Part shown: piece after piece, positions 18,944 to 64,000 of the stretch
How the letters are laid out: each line of letters starts with the position of its first letter
How positions within the stretch are numbered: position 1 is the stretch's first letter
Assembly (NCBI GenBank): GCA_937625935.1
Contig: OW569386.1
Coordinates: 186,001 to 250,000, forward strand
DNA: 64,000 nucleotides
Direction: 5' to 3'
Source of the DNA: Tetramitus jugosus
Taxonomy: Eukaryota; Protista; Heterolobosea
Program-made: the position numbers and the translations under genes
The notes under the pieces: model-generated
Told to the model about the DNA's origin: nothing
The model's database searches: none
What the model saw: the letters and a program-made list of their open reading frames with translations, nothing else

Positions 18944-19108
18944 TCGAATTGGAGAACTTAGCTTAACATTGTTGCTGTAGGAAACCAACAATTTCGGCCA
19001 TATAAAAATCCTTAGCGCAGAAGAATGCTTTTGGGTGTTCTTGATTTTATGTTCACAAAACTAACGAACAACACAAACAATTGAAAAATCAGTAGTACTA
19101 CATTGCAA

Positions 19109-20191
19109 ATGCCTGAAGAAAGAGTTTCCATTGTTTTGGATACGTGCATAGCAAATGACATGTTCGAATTGTTGAAAGCGAAAATCAACACTCATTTGGA
19201 ACAATCATTCTCAACCCGGTTCGAGTACGTCGCCACGCTTGGAGATGACTCTTTGTCACAGGGCGAACAATATTCAATGTGCATCACATGGGACGTTAAA
19301 ATTTCACACAGGCACCATTGCATTGCTGTTTCAGATTTTACCAACAACAGAATTCAATTCTTTGATTTGAAGACAAGAGAGTATAAAGCAACACTCTCCA
19401 CTACAAAGCCCATGTTTCTGTGCATTGAGAGGAATTACAAGAATGATGCATCACAGCATGATGCACTCATTTTTGGAACATACACGAATTGCATTTACAA
19501 GTATGATTTAGATCAGGTATTGAGAGGAGAAGAGTGTGAACCAATTTGGATGTTGGGAACACCTGACGAGAAGGGAAGTCGATTGGGTCAGTTTATTTTC
19601 CCACAAGGCATTGCGATGTGTTATTCGAGAAAGTATGACACACTGTTTGGCTCACATGTGACACAAGATGATCGATTACTGTTTGTTTGTGACAATTGTA
19701 ATCATCGTGTCCAAGTATTGAGATCCAGTGATGGGAAGGTTTTGGAATCCTTTGGTGTCCGAAGGAATGACGAAGATGAATCATCACAGAAGCCACTTGA
19801 ATTAATTGAATTCAATGGACCAAATGGAATCGATTTGGATGAAAATGACAACATAATTGTTGCTGAGTATAATGGCGAAAGAGTTCAAATCATTGGAAGA
19901 AGTGGAGAGGATGGACAGTTGACTGTTCTTAACTCAATAATGCTGAATACACAGCCATTAATAAGAAATGTTGTGTATGATCGCGTTGCACGGAATCTTG
20001 TCATTAGCGATTGTGAGGCTCACATAATTTCAGTGCTTGAATGGAGCGGCAAAGTTGTCGCTTGCTTTGGAAGTTACGGGTACACAGAATCCAATCACTT
20101 TGTCGGTCCATGTGGTTTGTGTTTGAATGAATTGACTGGAGAGCTGTATGTGGCTGATTCGGCGAACAACAGAATTCAAATTTTCCACTAA
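19109..20191 (+). CDS. NHL-repeat beta-propeller protein
   Basis: Repeated F..P.GI / VCD..NHRVQV / VADSANNRIQIF motifs. Confidence 0.85.
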   Translation: MPEERVSIVLDTCIANDMFELLKAKINTHLEQSFSTRFEYVATLGDDSLSQGEQYSMCITWDVKISHRHHCIAVSDFTNNRIQFFDLKTREYKATLSTTKPMFLCIERNYKNDASQHDALIFGTYTNCIYKYDLDQVLRGEECEPIWMLGTPDEKGSRLGQFIFPQGIAMCYSRKYDTLFGSHVTQDDRLLFVCDNCNHRVQVLRSSDGKVLESFGVRRNDEDESSQKPLELIEFNGPNGIDLDENDNIIVAEYNGERVQIIGRSGEDGQLTVLNSIMLNTQPLIRNVVYDRVARNLVISDCEAHIISVLEWSGKVVACFGSYGYTESNHFVGPCGLCLNELTGELYVADSANNRIQIFH

Positions 20192-20245
20192 AAGTTGGTC
20201 GGACCGATTTTTGAACCACAGCTTCGAAAACACAGAACAAAGCAC

Positions 20246-21245
20246 ATGTCCGAGGAAAGAGTTTCCATTATTCTAGACGCTGGCATAGTGAATTCTTTTT
20301 TCCACTTGTTTAAGATGAAAATCACCTCACCATTAAAGCAATCTTTTTCAATGCGGTTCGAGCACGTTGCCACGCTTGGAGATGACACTTTGTCACAGGG
20401 CGAACAATATTCAATGTGTATCACATGGGACGTTAAATTGCTGTTTCAGATTTTCACAATCGTAGAATTCAGTTCTTTGATTTGAAAACAAAAGAGTATT
20501 TGGCAACACTCTCTACCCCAGAAGCCATGTTTCTGTGCATTGAGAAGAATTTCAAGAATGATGCACTCATTTTCGGAACATACACGAATTGCATTTACAA
20601 GTATGATTTAGCCCAGATTCTGAGAGGAGAAGAGTGTGAACCAATTTGGATAGCTGATCAGTTCTTTTATCCACAAGGAATTGTAGTGTGCTATTCAAAC
20701 AAGTACGAGAACCTGTTTGGCTCTCATTTGGCCCGAGGTGATCGATTACTGTTCGTTTGTGACGAGTGTACCCATAGTATCAAAGTATTGAGATCCAGTG
20801 ATGGAAAGATATTAGAATCAATCGGTGTTAAAAGGAATGATTCATCACAGAAGACCCTTGACGTAGTTGAATTCAATGGTCCAAGTGGGATCGATTTGGA
20901 TGAACATGACAACTTAATTATTTCTGAATATAGTGGTCGAAGAATTCAAGTCATAGGAAAAAGCGAAGCTGGACAATTGATTGTTCTAAAATCATTACCA
21001 TTGAATACACAACCATGTCGACTAAGGGGTGTTGTGTATGATCATATTGCACGCAATATTATTGTGTGCGATTGCGAAGCCCACACAATTTCAATACTTA
21101 ATGGGGGCCAGGTTGTTTCTTGCTTTGGAAGTTACGAGTTTTCGGAAACCAACGAATTACGGTGCCCATCCGGTTTGTGTTTGAATTGACTGGAGAGCTG
21201 TATGTGGCTGATACCGCGAATAGCAGAATTCAAATTTTCAAGTAG
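20246..21245 (+). pseudogene. Tandem NHL-repeat paralogue, frameshifted
   Basis: Colinear with 19109-20191, with a 22-nt deletion at ~20437 and a 4-nt (TGAA) deletion at ~21187. Confidence 0.85.
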
Positions 21246-43949: not shown

Positions 43950-45000
43950 CTATTCCCCAGCTTTGAACAAATATGAATAACACATTTTCCTGTAAATTCG
44001 AACGTTACATTAATTCTTCTACTAGGACTGGGATCAAGAACCCCCTATGAAAGACCGCTTGGTTGCTGAATCTCCCACATCAGGTCGTAGGCAGGGAGGG
44101 GTCAGAGTTGAATATAATATCTGGACGCTTCCCAGCCAACTATCTTTCAGATACCCGAGAGATTCTACTACTCCTGAATCTTGATACAAGATCAATCATT
44201 GATATGAATATATGATTTGCTGGTTGCAGATGGTGATTGATCAGTGTGTTACTGCATGATTTGAATACTTGAGTGAAATCCACAAAGTGGAACCATGGTG
44301 TACCGTATTTTTTGGAGTGACCAATTATTCAAAACGGCTTCAGAGGGTTGCAGACAAGTCCCCGTCAGAGCAGCTCCCAATAATCTCACACACCAGGTTG
44401 GTATGTTAGAATTGTGAGCTTCATAAGTAGATTGATGGAGAACCTTAGACCTCCATTACAGGATGTCCAAGTCTGATTGTCGAATTGCCATCCAACGATT
44501 ATAAATGAAATTGAATCAGTTCATTGCCCAAAATTTCACTGAGAGTTTGTCTTGATCTCTCTACATTCATTGCATGCTTGCGCTTTGCCTCTGATCATTC
44601 TCAGATATGTCACAGCTCTGTGTTTATTGTTTTCAACAAGCAATGCCACAGTTTGACTCCTACCATTGACCAAGTTAATTCCTGCTGAGCAGTACGAATG
44701 GAAAAGGCGGATGCATCGAAACCTTGACATTGAGAAGTTGGCTCACATTTTTGAGATATCATAGGTTGAGTTACAACATCATGCCGTACTCTTGTGTGTC
44801 TTCTTTTCATTTTTTTCTTTCATTCTCTGACACGAGTTGTGTTCCATTTGGGTTGTTGTATTCATCTTCCATGTTTTCCCATAGCAATGCATCATTTTCC
44901 TCCAACAAAAAACAAAACTTCCTAAGAAAAGGTTCCAAAGGTGTACCTGTTGCAGAAATGGTTAGTTTTTTTCATCATGTGATTCACGACTGTTGGTTGT
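43950..45000 (-). pseudogene. Decayed member of a locally repeated gene family (copy 1 of 3)
   Basis: 43987-44132 shares CCTGTAAATTCGAA.GTTA..TAATTCTTCTAC.AGGA, CCCCCTATGAA and AATATCTGGACGCTTCC with 57215-57343. Confidence 0.55.
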
Positions 45001-55404: not shown

Positions 55405-55456
55405 TGAGCGAAATAAAAATTGAATACAAACAAGAAGGAAGTTTATGTCTTGTTGT

Positions 55457-56728
55457 TTACTTGGGTGTCGTGTCAAATTGTACACAAACACCAAAATGAT
55501 CACTGAGGTGAAGATATTCTTCCTTGGGTGGTTGGGGTTGGTTTCTTTGATTGGACTCGAGGAAAGAGTATCGTTGAGTTTGATTGCTTCTCGTTCGTGC
55601 ATTCTTGTCTGGCCACACTGGATCCATTGCAAATATGGTCATGTCTCTCGGATTCAATGCTTTTCCTCCAGTCCATCTGTAGATACGGTCGAGCCTCCAC
55701 CTGAATGGTTCTTGGTTCTGATCTACAGGCAAACTCATCATTTGCACAAGTGTGTTTAATGTGTTGTCCAGTGTGTATCCTGGATCGTTCGCACCCTTCA
55801 GTTCCACCCACAAATCAGTGAATTGACTTTTGCTGACGAATTCATCTTCGTTTTTAAACAAGAAGTTAAAATCACCCAGCATGAGATACTCATCAAATTC
55901 GTTCATTTTGTCGTTGAGATACTGTTCAAGTTCAATCAGTTGTTGTCTTCTTTGTTCTATGTTGTGCTGTGCATTACCAGCTTTCAGGTGAAGACCACAT
56001 AGACCTAGTCTCATGACCTTGTCATTGCCCAACGGAACTGCTATCTTGGCAAATAAACATGCCTTGTTCCTGGTCAATGGAACGAGTGACAGGTCTTCAT
56101 TGTATCCAAACTTGTATGTGTATTCGTCAAGGGACTCAATGGGAAACTTCGATAGAATAATGGTTCCATAGGGTACAACTGTTGAATAAGCAGTATTCAC
56201 AGTGTTATTGGCATCTCCCACTCTAAAGCTGGAACGACAAACTTCACTCAAGTAATAAGTGTTCATGATGAACTCATTCATGATTAATCGACTCAAATAA
56301 GTCGGAGTGACCTCGTTCAACACCAAGATGTCAAAGTTCATCTGTTCAAACATTTCAAACTGTTTCTCATATCTCACATGATTGTGCAACAATTCTGGTG
56401 TGTAATTGTCAAACAAGATGTTGAACGTGGCAACACGCAACTTTCCATTGTTCACATCACTTACAATATTTTTTGTAAGTGGTTTTCGTTTTGACGGAGT
56501 ATCAACAACGCAAGTATATTTCTCTTGATCGAAACGAAACACTGGCAGTTTGATACTTTGACCTGGCTTAGGCTTCAGAGTGCTTCCTTCACCCCTGTTT
56601 TGCAATGATTTTTCCGTGGTACTGCTGAGAGCAACCGAGGTTTCATTTGTGGATAGCTGTGATATTACACCAGGAGTGAGAGAGGTGGGATTGAGGTGAT
56701 CACAGATGACCGAGAGACGTTTTTTCAT
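55457..56728 (-). CDS. EEP-superfamily phosphodiesterase (TDP2-like) with N-terminal PTS2
   Basis: TFNI, LNEV, HLKA, GDFN, DLW....GYT.D...N, RLDR, SDHFG; MKK-RLSVICDHL. Confidence 0.85.
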   Translation of the reverse strand: MKKRLSVICDHLNPTSLTPGVISQLSTNETSVALSSTTEKSLQNRGEGSTLKPKPGQSIKLPVFRFDQEKYTCVVDTPSKRKPLTKNIVSDVNNGKLRVATFNILFDNYTPELLHNHVRYEKQFEMFEQMNFDILVLNEVTPTYLSRLIMNEFIMNTYYLSEVCRSSFRVGDANNTVNTAYSTVVPYGTIILSKFPIESLDEYTYKFGYNEDLSLVPLTRNKACLFAKIAVPLGNDKVMRLGLCGLHLKAGNAQHNIEQRRQQLIELEQYLNDKMNEFDEYLMLGDFNFLFKNEDEFVSKSQFTDLWVELKGANDPGYTLDNTLNTLVQMMSLPVDQNQEPFRWRLDRIYRWTGGKALNPRDMTIFAMDPVWPDKNARTRSNQTQRYSFLESNQRNQPQPPKEEYLHLSDHFGVCVQFDTTPK

Positions 56729-57015: not shown

Positions 57016-57480
57016 TTAATTCGGACAAACGTATGTATAGTAGATCCAACTATTCACAAGGACCAACATTGCTGTGCAACAACGTCTCCAGGAAACATTC
57101 CTATGTAAGGACTTTTCATTGACCATGTTCATGTTGAAAGCATCAACATGACCCATCCCATTCTTTGTGTAATCATCTGTAATTAATGGAACATTCATAT
57201 CTGAACGCTGACTCCCTGTAAATTCGAATGTTATAGTAATTCTTCTACCAGGATTGAGATCAACAGACCCCCTATGAATAAATATTTGAATAAATTTCTC
57301 AGATCCCCTCCCTAGGGGCCTGATAAATATCTGGACGCTTCCACTAGTGATACCAAAACCTCTCAGTACTACATCCATAATCAACTTGTCACCTCCATAA
57401 TAATTGTTCCAATAACAACGAAACTGTCCAGAACCCTGAGGGAGGGTATCGAGTGCCGAATTGCCCAACTTTCTCAGAAT
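57016..57480 (-). pseudogene. Decayed member of a locally repeated gene family (copy 2 of 3)
   Basis: Homologous to 43987-44132, and in inverted orientation to 60640-60720 (CCCCTAGGGAGG...TGAGAAATTTATTCAAATATTTATTCAT). Confidence 0.55.
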
Positions 57481-57509: not shown

Positions 57510-59573
57510 AACAAATGGTGCGTGAGCACCACGTTGCGGAACTTTTATTTTTCTTTTTTGAGAGCAGGCTTGGCTGCTCTCAATTTTCTAACATGATGTG
57601 GTGCTTGCCCAGTGGAGTGGCAGGCCTACGCAACATGATTCATTCTCTTCTTGGATTGTTGTTTTGATCCCTTCTTCAGGGATTCGTTGCGCGGGCCTCC
57701 ACTACCGTCTGGAGCACCACTGGTGAGGTCAGATGGATCCGTAGTCCTAGCCAGTTGGTAGGACCTACGGAGAGTACCTCACTTGATACTGGCCAACCTG
57801 GCCGGGATCTTATTACCAGCAGTGTCACCAACCGTGACACGTGCTGATCGCTTCTTGTTTTCCTTGAGTTGGGGACTCTGTAACTCGCAGTCGGGGTACA
57901 GAGATCCAACTCAACTGGATCTTCTTGGGTGGTTGTGCTTCTTGCACGGTCCAGCATGATTGCTCGGGCAGCAATCTCCTTCTTGGCTTTCTTGAACACC
58001 TCGGAGGTGTTCAATACTAGCTCGAGGATTGCTCTGTTACGAGCATCCTCATCCATGGTGTTGTTGGTTGGCTCTTGGGTGACCGTAGTTGGAGTGCGTC
58101 CTTGGAGACGGGGACACGAAGGGAATCCGGTTGACGGAAGCCATTTCTTTTAACACACTGACTTGGTGGCGCAGGTATGAGAGCAGGCGTGTCTAACAGA
58201 GCAGGCACGTTCTCAATTGTCTAACATGGTGTGGTGCTTGCCCAGTGGAGTGGCAGGCCTACGCAACAGGATTCATTCTCTTCCTGGAATGTTGTTTTGC
58301 TCCCTTCTTCAGGGATTCGTTGCGCGGGCCTCCACTACCGTCTGGAGCACCACTGGTGAGGTCAGATGGCTCCGTAGTCCTAGCCAGTTGGTAGGACCTA
58401 CGGAGAGCACCTGACTTGATGCTGGCCAACCTGGCCGGGATCTTGTTGCCAGCAGTGTCACCAACGGTGACACGTGCTGATCGCTTCTTGTTTTCGTTGA
58501 GTTGGGGACTCTGTAACTCACAGTCGGGGTTACAGAGATCCAACTCAACTGGATCTTCTTGGGTGGTTGTGCTTCTTGCACGGTCCACCATGATTGCTCG
58601 GGCAGCAATCTCTTTCTTGGCTTTCTTGAAAACCTCGGAGGTGTTCAATACTAACTCGAGGATTGCTCTGTTACGAGCATCCTCATCCGTGGTGTTGTTG
58701 GTTGGCTTTTGGGTGACCGTAGTTGGAGTGGCGGGGCGGGACTCCGGCATGATCGACTCCCAGTCATCGGTCGTAGACGGAGTCGAAGGTTCGAATTCGG
58801 AGATTCGGTCCGGCGTCCTTGGAGACGGGGACGCGAAGGGAATCCGGTTGTCGGAAGCCATCTCTTTTAACACACTGACTTGGTGGCGCAGGTCGTCCAC
58901 CACAGCCAGGAGCTCTTGATACATCTTGGTCAGCCTCTTGCTGACAGCCTTGACAGGGTCACGTGGGCGTGGAAGGAAGCGCTTTGCTTCCACCTCCACT
59001 GGCATGGCTTGAACGTTCCGAAGCAAAGCTTCGGCATACGTTTCAGACTCCATCACAACAAAGGCAGTGTTGTGCTTCTTGAGCACATTCTTGACCTTTG
59101 TTGTGCCGAGCATGGCCTTGATGTCGTCCTCCGTCTTCCCTTTGACGCCGTGGAGGACGACCTTCTTGGCACAATCAACGTTGTGCTTGAGTGCTGCCTT
59201 GCAGCCACTCATCTTCTTGTTGCGGTTTGAAGAATTCAACAAATGGGTAAATGTTGTCATCAACAACAGTTACCCACGCAACAAACCTCTTGGGGCCCTT
59301 CTTGATGACTTGGACCCTGGTGAGCAAGTCACCAAAATCCAAGCCAATCTTCTTGGCCAAGGCAGCTTTTGGAGAGTCATCGCACTTTCCAGTGATGATG
59401 ACCTCCTTGCTGCTTGGAGCAGTTCCTCTTGGTGCTGTGGTCCACACAGCATAGCGTGGATTCTCATACTCACGAACAACAGGGGTGTGTGTTCGTTTTT
59501 TCATCGGCGTTTTTCCATCACGACAAAGGCAGTGTTCCTGCAATGTTGTTTTGTTCCCTTATGTTATGTTATG
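57510..59573 (-). mobile_element. GC-rich element encoding an ORF1/gag-like protein (two RRM-like domains + coiled coil), frameshifted, no ORF2
   Basis: GC is visibly higher than in the flanks. RRM-like KEVIITG..FVAWVTV (ORF 59543-59175) and KKVVLHGV...TAFVVMES...AEALL (ORF 59266-58259). The 3' part is tandemly duplicated and the 5' end abuts a tRNA fragment. Confidence 0.5.
57560..58892. repeat. Tandem duplication of the element's 3' part (about 57560-58176 vs 58198-58892)
   Basis: High-identity colinear copies; the left copy lacks ~83 nt (58731-58813). Junction microhomology GCAGG. Confidence 0.9.
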
Positions 59574-59601
59574 TTCGATCCCTGCAACGACCATCCTTTT
59601 T
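59573..59601 (+). pseudogene. 3' fragment of a tRNA gene (Ile-like) with Pol III T-run
   Basis: GTTCGATCCCTGCAACGACCA (T-loop, T-stem 3' strand, acceptor strand, discriminator) followed by TCCTTTTT; the 5' part is replaced by (TTATG)3 and the GC-rich element. Confidence 0.65.
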
Positions 59602-60161
59602 CTTTCTTTTTTGCTTTTTGTGGTTGGAGGGTCGATAAACTCTGCCTAAGAAAGAGTGTAATCTTTGTGGTGTACCTGTTAATCAACTCTACGGTCACTG
59701 AGGATTGTGAGGATCGTGCAAAGAACATCAAACAATGCATGACTACACTTCAGTTCCGCTTCAAATTCTGGAATTGCCGATACAGATTCTTCGCAAATAT
59801 ACGGATACAATGCGACGTTAGTATGTATGTCATATGTATGAATGGATGTGCTGGCCGAATTGAAAAGGAAAAACATTATGTATACCCTGAATCACATATT
59901 ACTTCGAGATTCAGATTGACAATATCGTAAGATTCCAAAGCTCAATTCAAAGAGCCGTTGGTGACAATGATTTACAGAATGTCTTAACCAAAATTTCAAT
60001 CACTGACCAGCAGTCGTACGAGCAGAAGTATAAAGAGCTGGAACGCCCAAAAAACAGACTTGAACAATCCATTGTTATGAGCGCACCGTTTCCTAACAAC
60101 ATAATAAAGAAAAGAGGTTAGATACTTCGATCGTTGTCTTACAATAAAACGAAATTTTAAG

Positions 60162-60900
60162 ATGTCCACAACTTCAAGATTTAAACCAAAAACAAAAATT
60201 TTGAGGAGTTCAAAAACACAAACCTCTCACAAGAAAAATAATAAATCACAATTACCATTAACATCATTAACAACAATATCTTTGGCCTCAATCAACAACT
60301 CTTATAAAATCTGCGAAATACCTTCAACTTTTTCCGGTGGCCAATGCAACAGCTTTGTTTTTTATCATCAGTACAACTTCATCACGTGGAGTGTTGATAG
60401 TGACAGACCAAAAATTGTTTTCCCAGAAGTACATGGTTTGTTGTCCAGAGATGTTGTTTGCTATTCTTATTTTTTGTTTTTTTGTGTAGAAAAAACCTAC
60501 GAATCAGCGACTTGGGAGTTTTACACCAAGAAGTTGTTGTATTTGTACAAATTTATCTGGTTTGGAAAAAGAAGAACCTACGATGACCAACTCCGAAGGC
60601 ATTTTTGGTCCTGTCTATTCTACAAATGGTCAAATCTACGATGGGAGCGTCCACATATTATTTCTTACGCCCCCTAGGGAGGAAATATGAGAAATTTATT
60701 CAAATATTTATTCATGGGTCCTGACTCTCTTCATGAGTTGTTTCAAAATGTCAGTGGCTCTCTGAAACAAGCTCGTTAGGAGCTTCACAGGATCTTGGCT
60801 TCTTTGTATATATGGGATTATCTCTGCTGAAATTTGTTTATGCCTTGAGCATAAGACCGAGAAGTCATGTTACAAAGGCATTAGACCTCAACAATAAAGC
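60162..60900 (+). pseudogene. Decayed family member (copy 3 of 3), probably an F-box gene
   Basis: A frameshifted F-box-like start (LP-INIINNNIFG...LL*NLRNT) at ~60250-60325; shares a block with 57270-57345. Confidence 0.45.
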
Positions 60901-61308
60901 AAGAAGAACCTTCAAGATCACATCCAAAATGTGAAGTGAAAAGGATATCTGAAAAGATATGGTCACGGTGGTGCCTCTTCGATAAATGAAATTGTCAGCT
61001 GGTGAGAGATGAATTTACCAACATACTGCCACGCTTCATTCTGACAATCTTGGTCTAAGTCAATATTTAAACTTGACATATTCAACTCTAGAGTTTTGAG
61101 ACCTCTTATGTATCAAGTTTTAATTTAATTTAATCAGGATTCATCAAAGGTTCAACCTTGAACTTGTTATTTCCAAACTTTCTGAGTAATACCAATTGAT
61201 CGTAGTTAAATTCTCCGATCGCAAATTTATGTTTTATTGCTTGCCACAAAATTTTGAATTTTTGTTTCATATTGTTTCCTTTGATCAGGAGTACAAAATG
61301 GAAAAGAT

Positions 61309-61379
61309 CTCGAGCACCGGGAATCGAACCCGGGTCGCCAGAGTGACAGTCTGGAATGCTACCCCTATACCATGCCCGA
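61309..61379 (-). tRNA. tRNA-Asp(GTC)
   Basis: TCGGGCA/TGCTCGA acceptor stem, CCAGA-CTGTCAC-TCTGG anticodon arm, CCGGG-TTCGATT-CCCGG T arm, G discriminator, downstream TTTT. Confidence 0.95.
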
Positions 61380-61414
61380 TCGTTGTTTTCATAATTAATT
61401 TCTCAATTGCATGT

Positions 61415-62670
61415 GATCGTGGCCAATCGAGCAATTGAAGAGAAATGTGTCTCAGCTACAGAGTGAGTTGAACAATGTAATGGATGACTATGCCAGAAGT
61501 GTAGAAGAAATCCGTGCACTGAAGGCCGAAATGATGAAAATGAGACACAGAGTAAGCACCCTCTTGAGTGTTGATAGAAGAGAGAAAATGGTTCCAGATT
61601 CTGGAAATGGTTGACGATGAGACTATGAATCCAAAGAGTGACGAGCAAATGATGAGCACACCAGTTGCACAAACTAAGGGGAAGCGCACTGCTGTGGGGA
61701 AGGAAATAGGTCAAACAAAGCTGACTGACTTCACTGCAAGAAGCGGTGGCAGAAGAGGGACAAAAAGAGTAGCAAATGAGCTGGAGGAGGTTCAGACTCA
61801 GAGCAAGGTAGTTCTTACAGGCTCTCCTGGAGGAACAATGTATGTCAATAAGACTCAACCCATTGTCGAGAACAATGACGAGAGCGAACAGCTCCAACAA
61901 TGAGTACGACCTTAAACGTCGTGTGGTACAACATCAGGGGACTCAAAAACAAAAGAAGTGGTGTTGTAGCCTTTTTAGAGTCAAGCCCGGAAGTTGATGT
62001 TCTAATGTTCATGAAGCAAGTTGCAGGAACGAGGGATTCAAAACCTCCTTTTCCAGACAGCTTGAGATGGTGGGATGTATGTTGATCTGCAACGATGTAA
62101 CTGATAGAGTAATGGCAATAGTACGCCGTGCCAGTGTTCAAGAGTATAAAGTGCTTCTCTCCCATGATAGAATGCAAGTGATCGAGGTTGCTAGTGGTGA
62201 ACTTAGTGTGAAGTTGAAACCACTATGGCCCGCAAAAGGAAGCAATCGGAGGGCACCATTATGTGACAACCAATGAAGTTTTAAGAGAGATAGCGTACAG
62301 GGGAAAGCTAATCCTTGGAGGCGATCACAACACCGTGACGAAAGTTGGAAAAACTTATCAAGAGTTGATACTCACTGTCAAGGCAATGCCACAGAATGTA
62401 TGAGCAAGGATTTACACCCAAAGGGGTATATGCACATAATCCGATGTAATGGGCAATACGCCAGAGGCCGTGATGATCTCAAGGAAATGCTCTTCAGGGA
62501 AAGAAAGGCCACAACCGAACAGTACCCAGAGTGGTGGTTACAGTCTGCCGCAATGGAGCACAAGAACCAATTAGAGTTTCTCAAGAACCCCTTTGTTATA
62601 GATCGCAAGTTGGAATGGTTCCACGCACAGATCAGAAGCGGTACATTGCACACTAGAATCCTTTCGGGTG
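61415..62670 (+). mobile_element. Degenerate APE-type non-LTR retrotransposon (5'-truncated ORF1, ORF2 endonuclease, RT missing)
   Basis: Coiled-coil ORF1 remnant ends in an ATGA overlap at 61900-61903 with ORF2 MSTTLNVVWYNIRGLKNKR...EVDVL. GKLILGGDHN at ~62300; post-RT-like QIRSGTLHTR at ~62630-62657. Confidence 0.75.
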
Positions 62671-63560
62671 TTTTGAGGAGTTCCTTCTTCCTCGAGTTCT
62701 CTGAGAGTATTGTTTTTCTTAAAATCCTTTTCCCACTCTTCTTTTCCGCTGATCTTATATTCACAAAAGCTCCCGATATTACCAGTATCATGCGGAGAAA
62801 CCAATTTCCTTCGGAAACTAGAGAATTTCGGTAGTATACAAAGAGTCTCTTGCAAGAGATAGACTCGTCACTGCCCCTGAAAGGTACAATGTCTTGTCAT
62901 TGAGAGTAATCTGTAAATGTCGTTTATACTCACTACTGGATGGATTTGTCGATTTTTTTTAATCGAGCCATGCTCCTAGTGTTACCACTGTCGGTAGATA
63001 GCCTTAATAAATTGCCCAATCGCCGATCAGAACCTTCTAGATTAAATAGACTTAGAAGAAAAATTGTTGTCGCTCTTGTGGATATTTTCAAGCTCTATCA
63101 ATCTTAAAACATGCAAGAATATCCTATTCAACAGGCTGGATGTATTAATAATGTTCCACTGGAAATACAGCATCTATCAGATCGATTTAGTGTGTCAAAA
63201 CAGATGAAGTGACTTTTATATATATAAGAGCGAGACCCTTGATCACTTATCGAATTTCTCGATTGAGTTCTTACAACTCCCGTGGATGGCAGATATTCTG
63301 GATATAATTGTTCAAATCATTCAATTTTGCGCCATAGTTGAGATAGAATAACTATGCCCAACTATTCTCGACAAAATCAACTCTATCTGACTCAACCTGA
63401 TATATATCTGTGTATTTGATGAAGGTGAATGCATCAACCAGCTGAGGTACATGCACCAGATGGACCTCAGCTGATTCGATCTGTCCATAGGCACCAGAGA
63501 TTGCGCTGCAGATCGAGACAGATGTTGTTTCAACAACTTGAAGAAGCAATACGCATGCGT
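62670..63560 (-). pseudogene. Decayed gene, possibly F-box
   Basis: SAEVHLVHVPQLVDAFTFIKY is weakly F-box-like; broken frames downstream. Confidence 0.3.
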
Positions 63561-63649
63561 TGTTCTTTTTTGAATTTCGCTGCTGCCTTGGTTGTATTCT
63601 TCTTTTTGTTGTAAATTGTGGCGTTAATCTAATTTTTTCTGTGCCTCGT

Positions 63650-64000
63650 TTACTTTGTCGTGTCAAATTGTACACAAACACCAAAATGATCACTGAGGTG
63701 AAGATATTCTTCCTTGGGTGGTTGAGGTTGGTTTCTTTGATTGGACTCGAGGAAAGAGTATCGTTGAGTTTGATTGCTTCTCGTTCGTGCATTCTTGTCT
63801 GGCCACACTGGATCCATTGCAAATATGGTCATGTCGCTCGGATTCAACACCTTTCCTCCAGTCCATCTGTACACTCTATCGAGTCTTCTCTTAAACGGTT
63901 CTTCGTTCTGATCCACCGGTTTGTTCATCATTTGCATGAGCGTGTTCAGTGTGTTATCCATTGTATAGCCAGGATCCTTCACGCCCTTCAATTCCACCCA
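63650..64000 (-). CDS. Second TDP2-like EEP paralogue, 3' end (continues beyond window)
   Basis: PGYTMDNTLN, RRLDR, SDHFG; colinear with 55457-55810. Confidence 0.85.
   Translation of the reverse strand, partial: WVELKGVKDPGYTMDNTLNTLMQMMNKPVDQNEEPFKRRLDRVYRWTGGKVLNPSDMTIFAMDPVWPDKNARTRSNQTQRYSFLESNQRNQPQPPKEEYLHLSDHFGVCVQFDTTK

What the first reader, a model, noticed from the sequence alone, without database searches (positions are those of the whole stretch)
61309..62670. LINE relic starting ~35 bp upstream of tRNA-Asp, head-to-head: possible tRNA-gene-targeted retrotransposon
Seen: tRNA-Asp starts at 61379 (minus). Coding-like ORF1 sequence (IEQLKRNVSQLQSELNNV...) begins abruptly at ~61415 on the plus strand, followed by an APE ORF2. 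Known: Dictyostelium TRE5 elements insert about 50 bp upstream of tRNA genes with their 5' end facing the gene via TFIIIB contact, a safe-harbour strategy in gene-dense genomes. Inference: an independent or related tRNA-targeting LINE family in this compact genome.
Basis: partly seen in the sequence, partly recalled or inferred. Interest (0 to 1): 0.7.

Follow-up and report, generated by a model that had tools for sequence, protein, structure and literature searches.

The report
Dead LINE facing a tRNA gene
A broken, front-truncated copy of a LINE-type jumping gene starts 43-46 bases in front of a tRNA gene and points away from it, and a related element 2 kb away also abuts a tRNA remnant, so this family likely homes in on tRNA genes as slime-mould elements do, though a genome-wide test could not be run.

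Summary
tRNA-Asp(GTC) lies at 61309-61379 (-). A decayed APE-type LINE lies at 61423-62657 (+), confirmed by homologues with endonuclease plus reverse transcriptase. A 95% identical full-length ORF1 (340 aa) shows that this copy starts at codon 180. It is therefore 5'-truncated, and the gap to the tRNA is 43-46 bp, not 35, inside the 40-54 bp TRE5 window. The copy has also lost its RT region and 3' end, and has no tail or target-site duplication, so the 5' edge could be a later deletion. So both LINE-related 5' junctions in the window abut tRNA sequence. No genome was available. The contig test found no tRNA-Asp joined to another copy but had almost no power. tRNA-directed insertion is the best reading at about 0.5; chance co-location in a repeat-rich patch is the main rival. 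The host is a gene-dense protist of unproven lineage.

The parts
61309..61379 (-). tRNA-Asp(GTC) gene, intact, followed by a T4 terminator; multicopy in the genome
   Evidence: high contig depth
61380..61422 (.). 43-bp AT-rich spacer between tRNA +1 and the first LINE base (46 bp if the junction is at 61426)
   Evidence: no similar stretch elsewhere in the window
61423..61903 (+). 3' half of LINE ORF1 (codons 180-340: predicted coiled coil plus disordered tail), frameshifted near 61600; first 179 codons and 5' UTR missing
   Evidence: 95-96% identity to P0012; helix 180-234 in model
61900..62341 (+). ORF2 N-terminus: first ~147 codons of an APE-type endonuclease, broken by frameshifts near 62010 and 62216
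   Evidence: frameshifts are real, since Illumina-type contigs match with 0 differences over 62018-62320 and other copies carry the extra letters
62349..62657 (+). Distal piece of the same family, likely the ORF2 C-terminal region, joined to the endonuclease by a large internal deletion; other copies continue beyond 62657, so this copy lacks its 3' end
   Evidence: loose ends before 62349 and behind 62657; no Pfam hit; no TSD found
57545..59515 (-). Head-to-tail stack of a high-copy ORF1-only relative (likely HAL1-like): one 5'-complete copy (about 59515-58177) and a truncated copy ending in an A-rich tract
   Evidence: ORF homologous to P0012 aa 12-215 (E 7e-18); internal duplication 95.8%; contig depth about 100x single copy
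59514..59574 (-). 5' junction of the stack: two short pieces of the same element in reversed order (22/23 and 24/26 identical to 59049-59071 and 58281-58306) plus three 5-bp repeats, likely reverse-transcriptase template jumps
59573..59593 (+). 3' remnant of a different tRNA gene (T-loop, 3' strands of T and acceptor stems, discriminator) followed by a T-run; the 5' part is absent
   Evidence: T-loop plus T-run motif: 2 hits in the window, shuffle mean 0.185, 0 of 200 reach 2; not detected by ARAGORN or Rfam

Best explanation
This is a dead, 5'-truncated and internally deleted copy of a multicopy APE-type LINE lying 43-46 bp upstream of tRNA-Asp and facing away from it, likely placed there by position-specific insertion at tRNA genes. 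Shown: identity, truncation, geometry, several other copies, and a second LINE-related 5' junction on a tRNA remnant. Inferred by analogy with TRE5-A: the ORF1p/ORF2p-RNA particle would dock on the RNA polymerase III factors (TFIIIB) bound upstream of a tRNA gene, the endonuclease would nick at a set distance, and target-primed reverse transcription stopped early at ORF1 codon 180, leaving the 5' junction at the target site. Later deletions removed the RT region and the 3' end. The ORF1-only relative would use the same route in trans, its insertion having deleted the 5' part of its target tRNA gene.
For: Distance and orientation fall inside the TRE5 window of 40-54 bp, opposite orientation (PMC5911963 passages); 5'-deleted TRE5-A copies also land at such sites (PMC3159450 passages). 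2 of 2 LINE-related 5' junctions in the window abut tRNA sequence antisense, while the window holds 1 intact tRNA gene in 64 kb. With assumed tRNA densities of one per 20-64 kb, the chance per junction is 0.0002-0.003 for the first geometry and 0.001-0.011 for the second. In another strain a tRNA-Asp 3' end precedes the flank that follows the remnant (joint 59632/61296, side 41, one contig of depth 2.9), which supports the remnant marking a tRNA locus. Head-to-tail stacking matches TRE tandems (PMC5391098 passages).
Against: 0 of 5 joints link the tRNA-Asp 5' end to another copy, and none of the 15 of 109 joints shown does. Power was low: only about 14 of 238 X2 contigs ran on into unlike sequence, and P(0) is 0.17-0.85 even under full targeting. 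0 of 2 metagenome loci of distant relatives hold a tRNA: L001 starts inside ORF1, and L002 has an inverted piece of a related element where a tRNA would be. The copy has no TSD or tail and has had at least two later deletions, so its 5' edge may be a third. The second junction lies inside a tRNA gene, not 45 bp upstream. The 4 other 5' flanks of the high-copy relative have a median loose length of 49 nt, shorter than the roughly 75 nt expected from a 45-bp spacer plus a 30-nt contig overlap. With some 170 related copies, 0.04-0.44 TRE5-like neighbours are expected by chance per genome.
Confidence: 0.5

Rival explanations
1. Chance neighbours: LINE relics, tRNA genes and duplicated segments pile up in a gene-poor, rearranged patch, and later deletions brought the element edges next to tRNA sequence.
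For: 55-64 kb has 38% of bases in long ORFs against 72% for 1-55 kb. It holds a duplicated EEP gene, a high-copy short inverted repeat and 2-4x depth over much of the flank. The LINE copy shows later deletions. The first locus was chosen because of the adjacency.
Against: It needs two coincidences of distance and strand in one window; the second junction carries template-jump-like pieces typical of an original insertion end.
Confidence: 0.33
2. A loose preference, not tethering: the endonuclease favours AT-rich, nucleosome-poor DNA such as gene-upstream regions, and selection removes insertions in genes, so survivors are enriched near tRNA 5' ends without a fixed distance.
For: The spacer and the 4 other 5' flanks of the relative are AT-rich. 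The two junctions differ in position relative to the tRNA (43-46 bp upstream versus at the T-loop). An earlier, unchecked scan note on a Naegleria LINE near a tRNA gene pointed to start-codon targeting instead.
Against: It does not predict the same orientation at both loci; no direct test was possible.
Confidence: 0.17

Closest known systems
TRE5-A/B/C of Dictyostelium discoideum (L1-group non-LTR retrotransposons)
   Same: ORF1 plus APE-RT ORF2 with a short overlap; 5' end facing the tRNA 5' end at 43-46 bp (TRE5 40-54 bp); 5'-deleted copies, tandems and an ORF2-deficient non-autonomous partner (TRE5-A.2) all occur there.
   Different: Host is a 41% GC protist with no dictyostelid named among the 59 glutathione synthetase hits (most hits unnamed). 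TRE-like elements were reported absent even from other amoebozoans (PMC5006619 section 9). Family-wide targeting and ORF1-TFIIIB binding are not shown here; kinship was not tested.
NLTR-B of Polysphondylium pallidum
   Same: Independent non-LTR element 39-64 bp upstream of tRNA genes.
   Different: NLTR-B carries RNase H; no RNase H was seen here, but the region where it would lie is deleted in this copy and missing from the homologues found.
Human LINE-1 ORF2p and HAL1 (half-L1)
   Same: Best PDB sequence match of the EN-RT homologue P0005 is L1 ORF2p over aa 98-667, E 5e-18. HAL1 encodes only ORF1p (PMC5753468 passage), like the neighbouring high-copy element.
   Different: L1 and HAL1 are not tRNA-directed (own knowledge). 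ORF1 here is predicted to have two alpha/beta domains before the coiled coil (mean pLDDT 54.5), whereas L1 ORF1p has coiled coil, RRM, CTD (recalled).

Membership tests
APE-type non-LTR retrotransposon (LINE) | ORF1 followed by ORF2 with N-terminal APE endonuclease | tested here: met
   Exo_endo_phos above cut-off in 4 of 8 homologues and in P0011
APE-type non-LTR retrotransposon (LINE) | Reverse transcriptase in ORF2 | tested here: met
   met in the homologue P0005 (RVT_1 56 bits); deleted from the window copy
APE-type non-LTR retrotransposon (LINE) | Dispersed copies with 5' truncation | tested here: met
   several diverged contigs, summed depth about 280-460 against about 50 for unique contigs in X2; truncation at codon 180
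APE-type non-LTR retrotransposon (LINE) | 3' tail and target-site duplication | tested here: inconclusive
   none found, but the 3' end of this copy is lost (loose ends behind 62657)
L1 clade | RT groups with L1 in a phylogeny | not testable with these tools
   no reference RT set was available as sequences; best PDB hit is L1 ORF2p ahead of R2, but the PDB holds few clades
L1 clade | C-terminal CCHC / zf-RVT region, no RNase H | tested here: inconclusive
   62349-62657 has no Pfam hit at E up to 10; the full C-terminus was not recovered
TRE5-type tRNA-gene-targeted element (behaviour) | 5' junction 40-54 bp upstream of the mature tRNA, opposite orientation | tested here: met
   43-46 bp for this one copy
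TRE5-type tRNA-gene-targeted element (behaviour) | Most copies share that position | tested here: inconclusive
   0 of 5 joints, low power; 0 of 2 distant loci; second junction on a tRNA remnant
TRE5-type tRNA-gene-targeted element (behaviour) | ORF1p binds TFIIIB subunits; B box needed | not testable with these tools
   host TFIIIB sequences were not in hand; bench test needed
TRE lineage (descent) | Dictyostelid host and RT monophyly with TRE3/TRE5 | tested here: inconclusive
   host unplaced; quick tree puts the window protein near Percolomonas with SH-aLRT 92 on long branches; RT tree not built
HAL1-like ORF1-only element (neighbour 57545-59515) | Encodes only an ORF1 homologue, multicopy, A-rich 3' end | tested here: met
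   no ORF2 hit there with P0005 or P0011
HAL1-like ORF1-only element (neighbour 57545-59515) | Mobilised in trans by the LINE ORF2p | not testable with these tools
   inferred only

The most novel reading that the evidence does not exclude
A non-dictyostelid protist, possibly a heterolobosean, has independently evolved a tRNA-gene-targeted LINE together with a far more abundant ORF1-only parasite, both steered to RNA polymerase III complexes by a shared N-terminal tandem alpha/beta region of ORF1p.
Probability: 0.3. Interest if true: 0.7.

Novelty: new member of a known kind. Interest (0 to 1): 0.45.

Why it matters
The reviews and papers read here list tRNA-upstream non-LTR elements only in dictyostelids, and literature searches returned no listing of such an element in Heterolobosea or Discoba. 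A second, unrelated protist lineage with the same 45-bp geometry would show how strongly TFIIIB-bound DNA channels convergent evolution. An ORF1-only partner would let one ask directly whether ORF1p alone carries the targeting, which is relevant to safe-harbour insertion tools. If targeting fails the genome-wide test, this is an ordinary dead LINE.

Tried and rejected
No genome was held, so copy mapping was impossible. Direct Pfam scan of 11 window ORFs gave no endonuclease hit, only weak coiled-coil matches; PDB search with the read-through fragment gave nothing. Search with P0005 returned only itself among 7990 candidates. Viral collection: no relative in 3 scans. GTDB genomes: one 25% hit in a bacterial MAG, judged spurious and not followed. 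The ESM Atlas gave no result. Fold searches of the ORF1 model: no Foldseek match at E 0.001 (best 4.4e-3; I-DmoI, NONO/SFPQ and other tandem-RRM proteins), VIA best Z 6.8 with none at 8; a common alpha/beta arrangement, no assignment. 0 of 9 window proteins were in the collection by exact look-up. Host placement by glutathione synthetase was inconclusive: 45% to one unnamed protein, 27-38% to the rest; the quick tree used 49 of the 59 hits. Rejected: that the 'APE ORF2' is a relic of the neighbouring host EEP gene (55460-56728), since P0011, P0003, P0005 and P0002 hit only 61900-62340. Rejected: that the frameshifts are assembly errors. Rejected: that 61415 is the natural 5' end.

Full report
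1. Observation. ARAGORN finds one tRNA in the 64-kb window, tRNA-Asp(GTC) at 61309-61379 on minus; Rfam agrees at 52.9 bits. Plus-strand ORF pieces follow it. They gave no endonuclease hit in Pfam by themselves. The frame from ATG 61900, read with X at stops, found 9 proteins among 1.84 billion; 8 are endonuclease relatives and 1 (P0010) is a spurious repeat. Of the 8, 4 pass the Exo_endo_phos cut-off and P0005 also has RVT_1. The best PDB match of P0005 is human LINE-1 ORF2p, E 5e-18. The element is an APE-type LINE.

2. The 5' junction. The coiled-coil piece found one protein among 42 candidates, P0012, a 340-aa ORF1 that is 95-96% identical. The window matches it from residue 180: 12 of 12 codons from 61423 are identical and 1 of the 16 before. 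A contig from a soil metagenome (X4 record 11, 838 nt) lies on 61426-61922 after 335 unmatched letters. The copy thus lacks 537 nt of ORF1 plus the leader, and the spacer to tRNA +1 is 43-46 bp. Truncation does not argue against targeting, because the 5' junction of a truncated copy still sits at the target site; a 5'-deleted TRE5-A insertion upstream of a tRNA gene is described in PMC3159450 (passages). TRE5 inserts 40-54 bp upstream in opposite orientation (PMC5911963, passages), and 85% of trapped events fall within 47 +/- 3 bp (PMC5391098, passages).

3. State of the copy. ORF1 is frameshifted near 61600. The endonuclease is frameshifted twice and stops at about codon 147. Other copies differ before 62349 and continue past 62657, so an internal deletion removed the RT and the 3' end is gone. 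No TSD was found. Contigs of the source organism match 61438-61681 and 62018-62320 with 0 differences, so the lesions are real. Summed contig depth of about 280-460 against about 50 for unique contigs suggests roughly 6-8 copies; the tool warns that this is no true copy number.

4. A second locus. P0012 aa 12-215 also hits 58850-59480 on minus (E 7e-18). This is a head-to-tail stack of an ORF1-only element with depth about 100 times single copy. Its shared 5' end is near 59515: 4 contigs leave there, and the unique contig begins at 59486. Between it and 59573 lie two short pieces of the same element in reversed order and three 5-bp repeats. I read these as template jumps at an insertion end, from own knowledge of non-LTR junctions; one search was seen as a listing only. 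The junction joins, antisense, the last 21 bases of a tRNA gene followed by a T-run. A T-loop plus T-run motif occurs twice in the window, here and in tRNA-Asp; 37 of 200 shuffles had one and none had two. ARAGORN and Rfam do not call the remnant, and its matching 5' acceptor strand is not nearby. In X4 one low-depth contig puts a tRNA-Asp 3' end in front of the same downstream flank.

5. Tests of targeting. No genome was held. Laying contigs on 59440-62760 gave 5 joints, none from the tRNA-Asp 5' end to an element 5' end. Only tRNA-Asp could be seen, and about 14 of 238 X2 contigs and 10 of 60 X4 contigs ran on into unlike sequence; the chance of seeing none under full targeting is 0.17-0.85 with assumed Asp shares of 4-12%. 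In one search, 15 of 109 joints were shown and none involved the tRNA. Two metagenome loci of distant relatives (36-37% identity) hold no tRNA; one starts inside ORF1 and the other has an inverted related fragment at its 5' side. The 4 other 5' flanks of the ORF1-only element are AT-rich with a median of 49 loose letters, shorter than a 45-bp spacer plus overlap would give; this is unexplained. Chance estimates, which rest on assumed and not counted tRNA densities, are 0.0002-0.003 per junction for the first geometry, 0.04-0.44 expected among some 170 copies, and 0.001-0.011 for the second junction. The confounder is that 55-64 kb is gene-poor (38% in long ORFs against 72%) and rearranged.

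6. Mechanism. Shown: a TPRT-type element, truncated, in TRE5 geometry. Inferred: docking on TFIIIB through ORF1p, as reported for TRE5-A (PMC5911963 passages; PMC5006619 section 11). The ORF1 model (3 sequences, mean pLDDT 54.5) has two alpha/beta domains, a confident helix at 180-234 and a disordered tail; fold searches gave no significant match. The region shared by the LINE and the ORF1-only element is aa 12-215, which would be the place to look for a targeting surface.

7. Host and novelty. The host is a gene-dense protist at about 41% GC. Its glutathione synthetase has no close named relative, and a quick tree of 49 of 59 hits places it weakly near Percolomonas. A heterolobosean is plausible, also from recalled gene content, but unproven. 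Papers: PMC5006619 abstract and sections 9 and 11 read; PMC3159450, PMC5391098, PMC5911963, PMC6101501, PMC8869645 and PMC5753468 seen as passages; no supplements opened. Searches listed no tRNA-upstream LINE outside dictyostelids; the library lacks most subscription journals and Repbase Reports. Unchecked scan notes describe the same geometry in several fungi, so the habit may be wider than in print, which lowers the surprise of one more case.

8. Verdict. A real, dead LINE in TRE5-like position, with one supporting neighbour and no genome-wide proof. Targeting about 0.5, interest 0.45.

Noticed in passing
window 57215-57343, 60642-60718, 43989-44051: A short repeat present three times, two copies inverted around the ORF1-only stack (48-nt arms, 92% complementary); very high contig depth at 60668 suggests an abundant MITE-like or palindromic family.
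   Followed up: partly
window 55455-55810 and 63648-64000+: Duplicated host Exo_endo_phos gene (88% identical) flanking the whole repeat patch, suggesting a tandem segmental duplication.
   Followed up: partly
window 19085-21186: Two tandem paralogous beta-propeller-like genes (NHL-like by recall), about 80% identical.
   Followed up: no
window 61387 (X4 loose end): Another tRNA-Asp copy shares 8 upstream bases and then has a 77-nt flank whose letters 25-30 resemble a tRNA-Asp 3' end; possibly tandem tRNA genes, though no joint was reported.
   Followed up: no
window 59226: The ORF1-only copy has one extra base relative to many other copies, which splits its ORF; other copies likely have a continuous ORF of about 415 codons.
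   Followed up: no
L002 161-583: An inverted endonuclease fragment of a related subfamily joined head-to-head to an endonuclease-starting copy.
   Followed up: no
window 61024-61190: Another repeated stretch downstream of tRNA-Asp; 4 contigs in X2 leave at 61190 with similar sequence.
   Followed up: no
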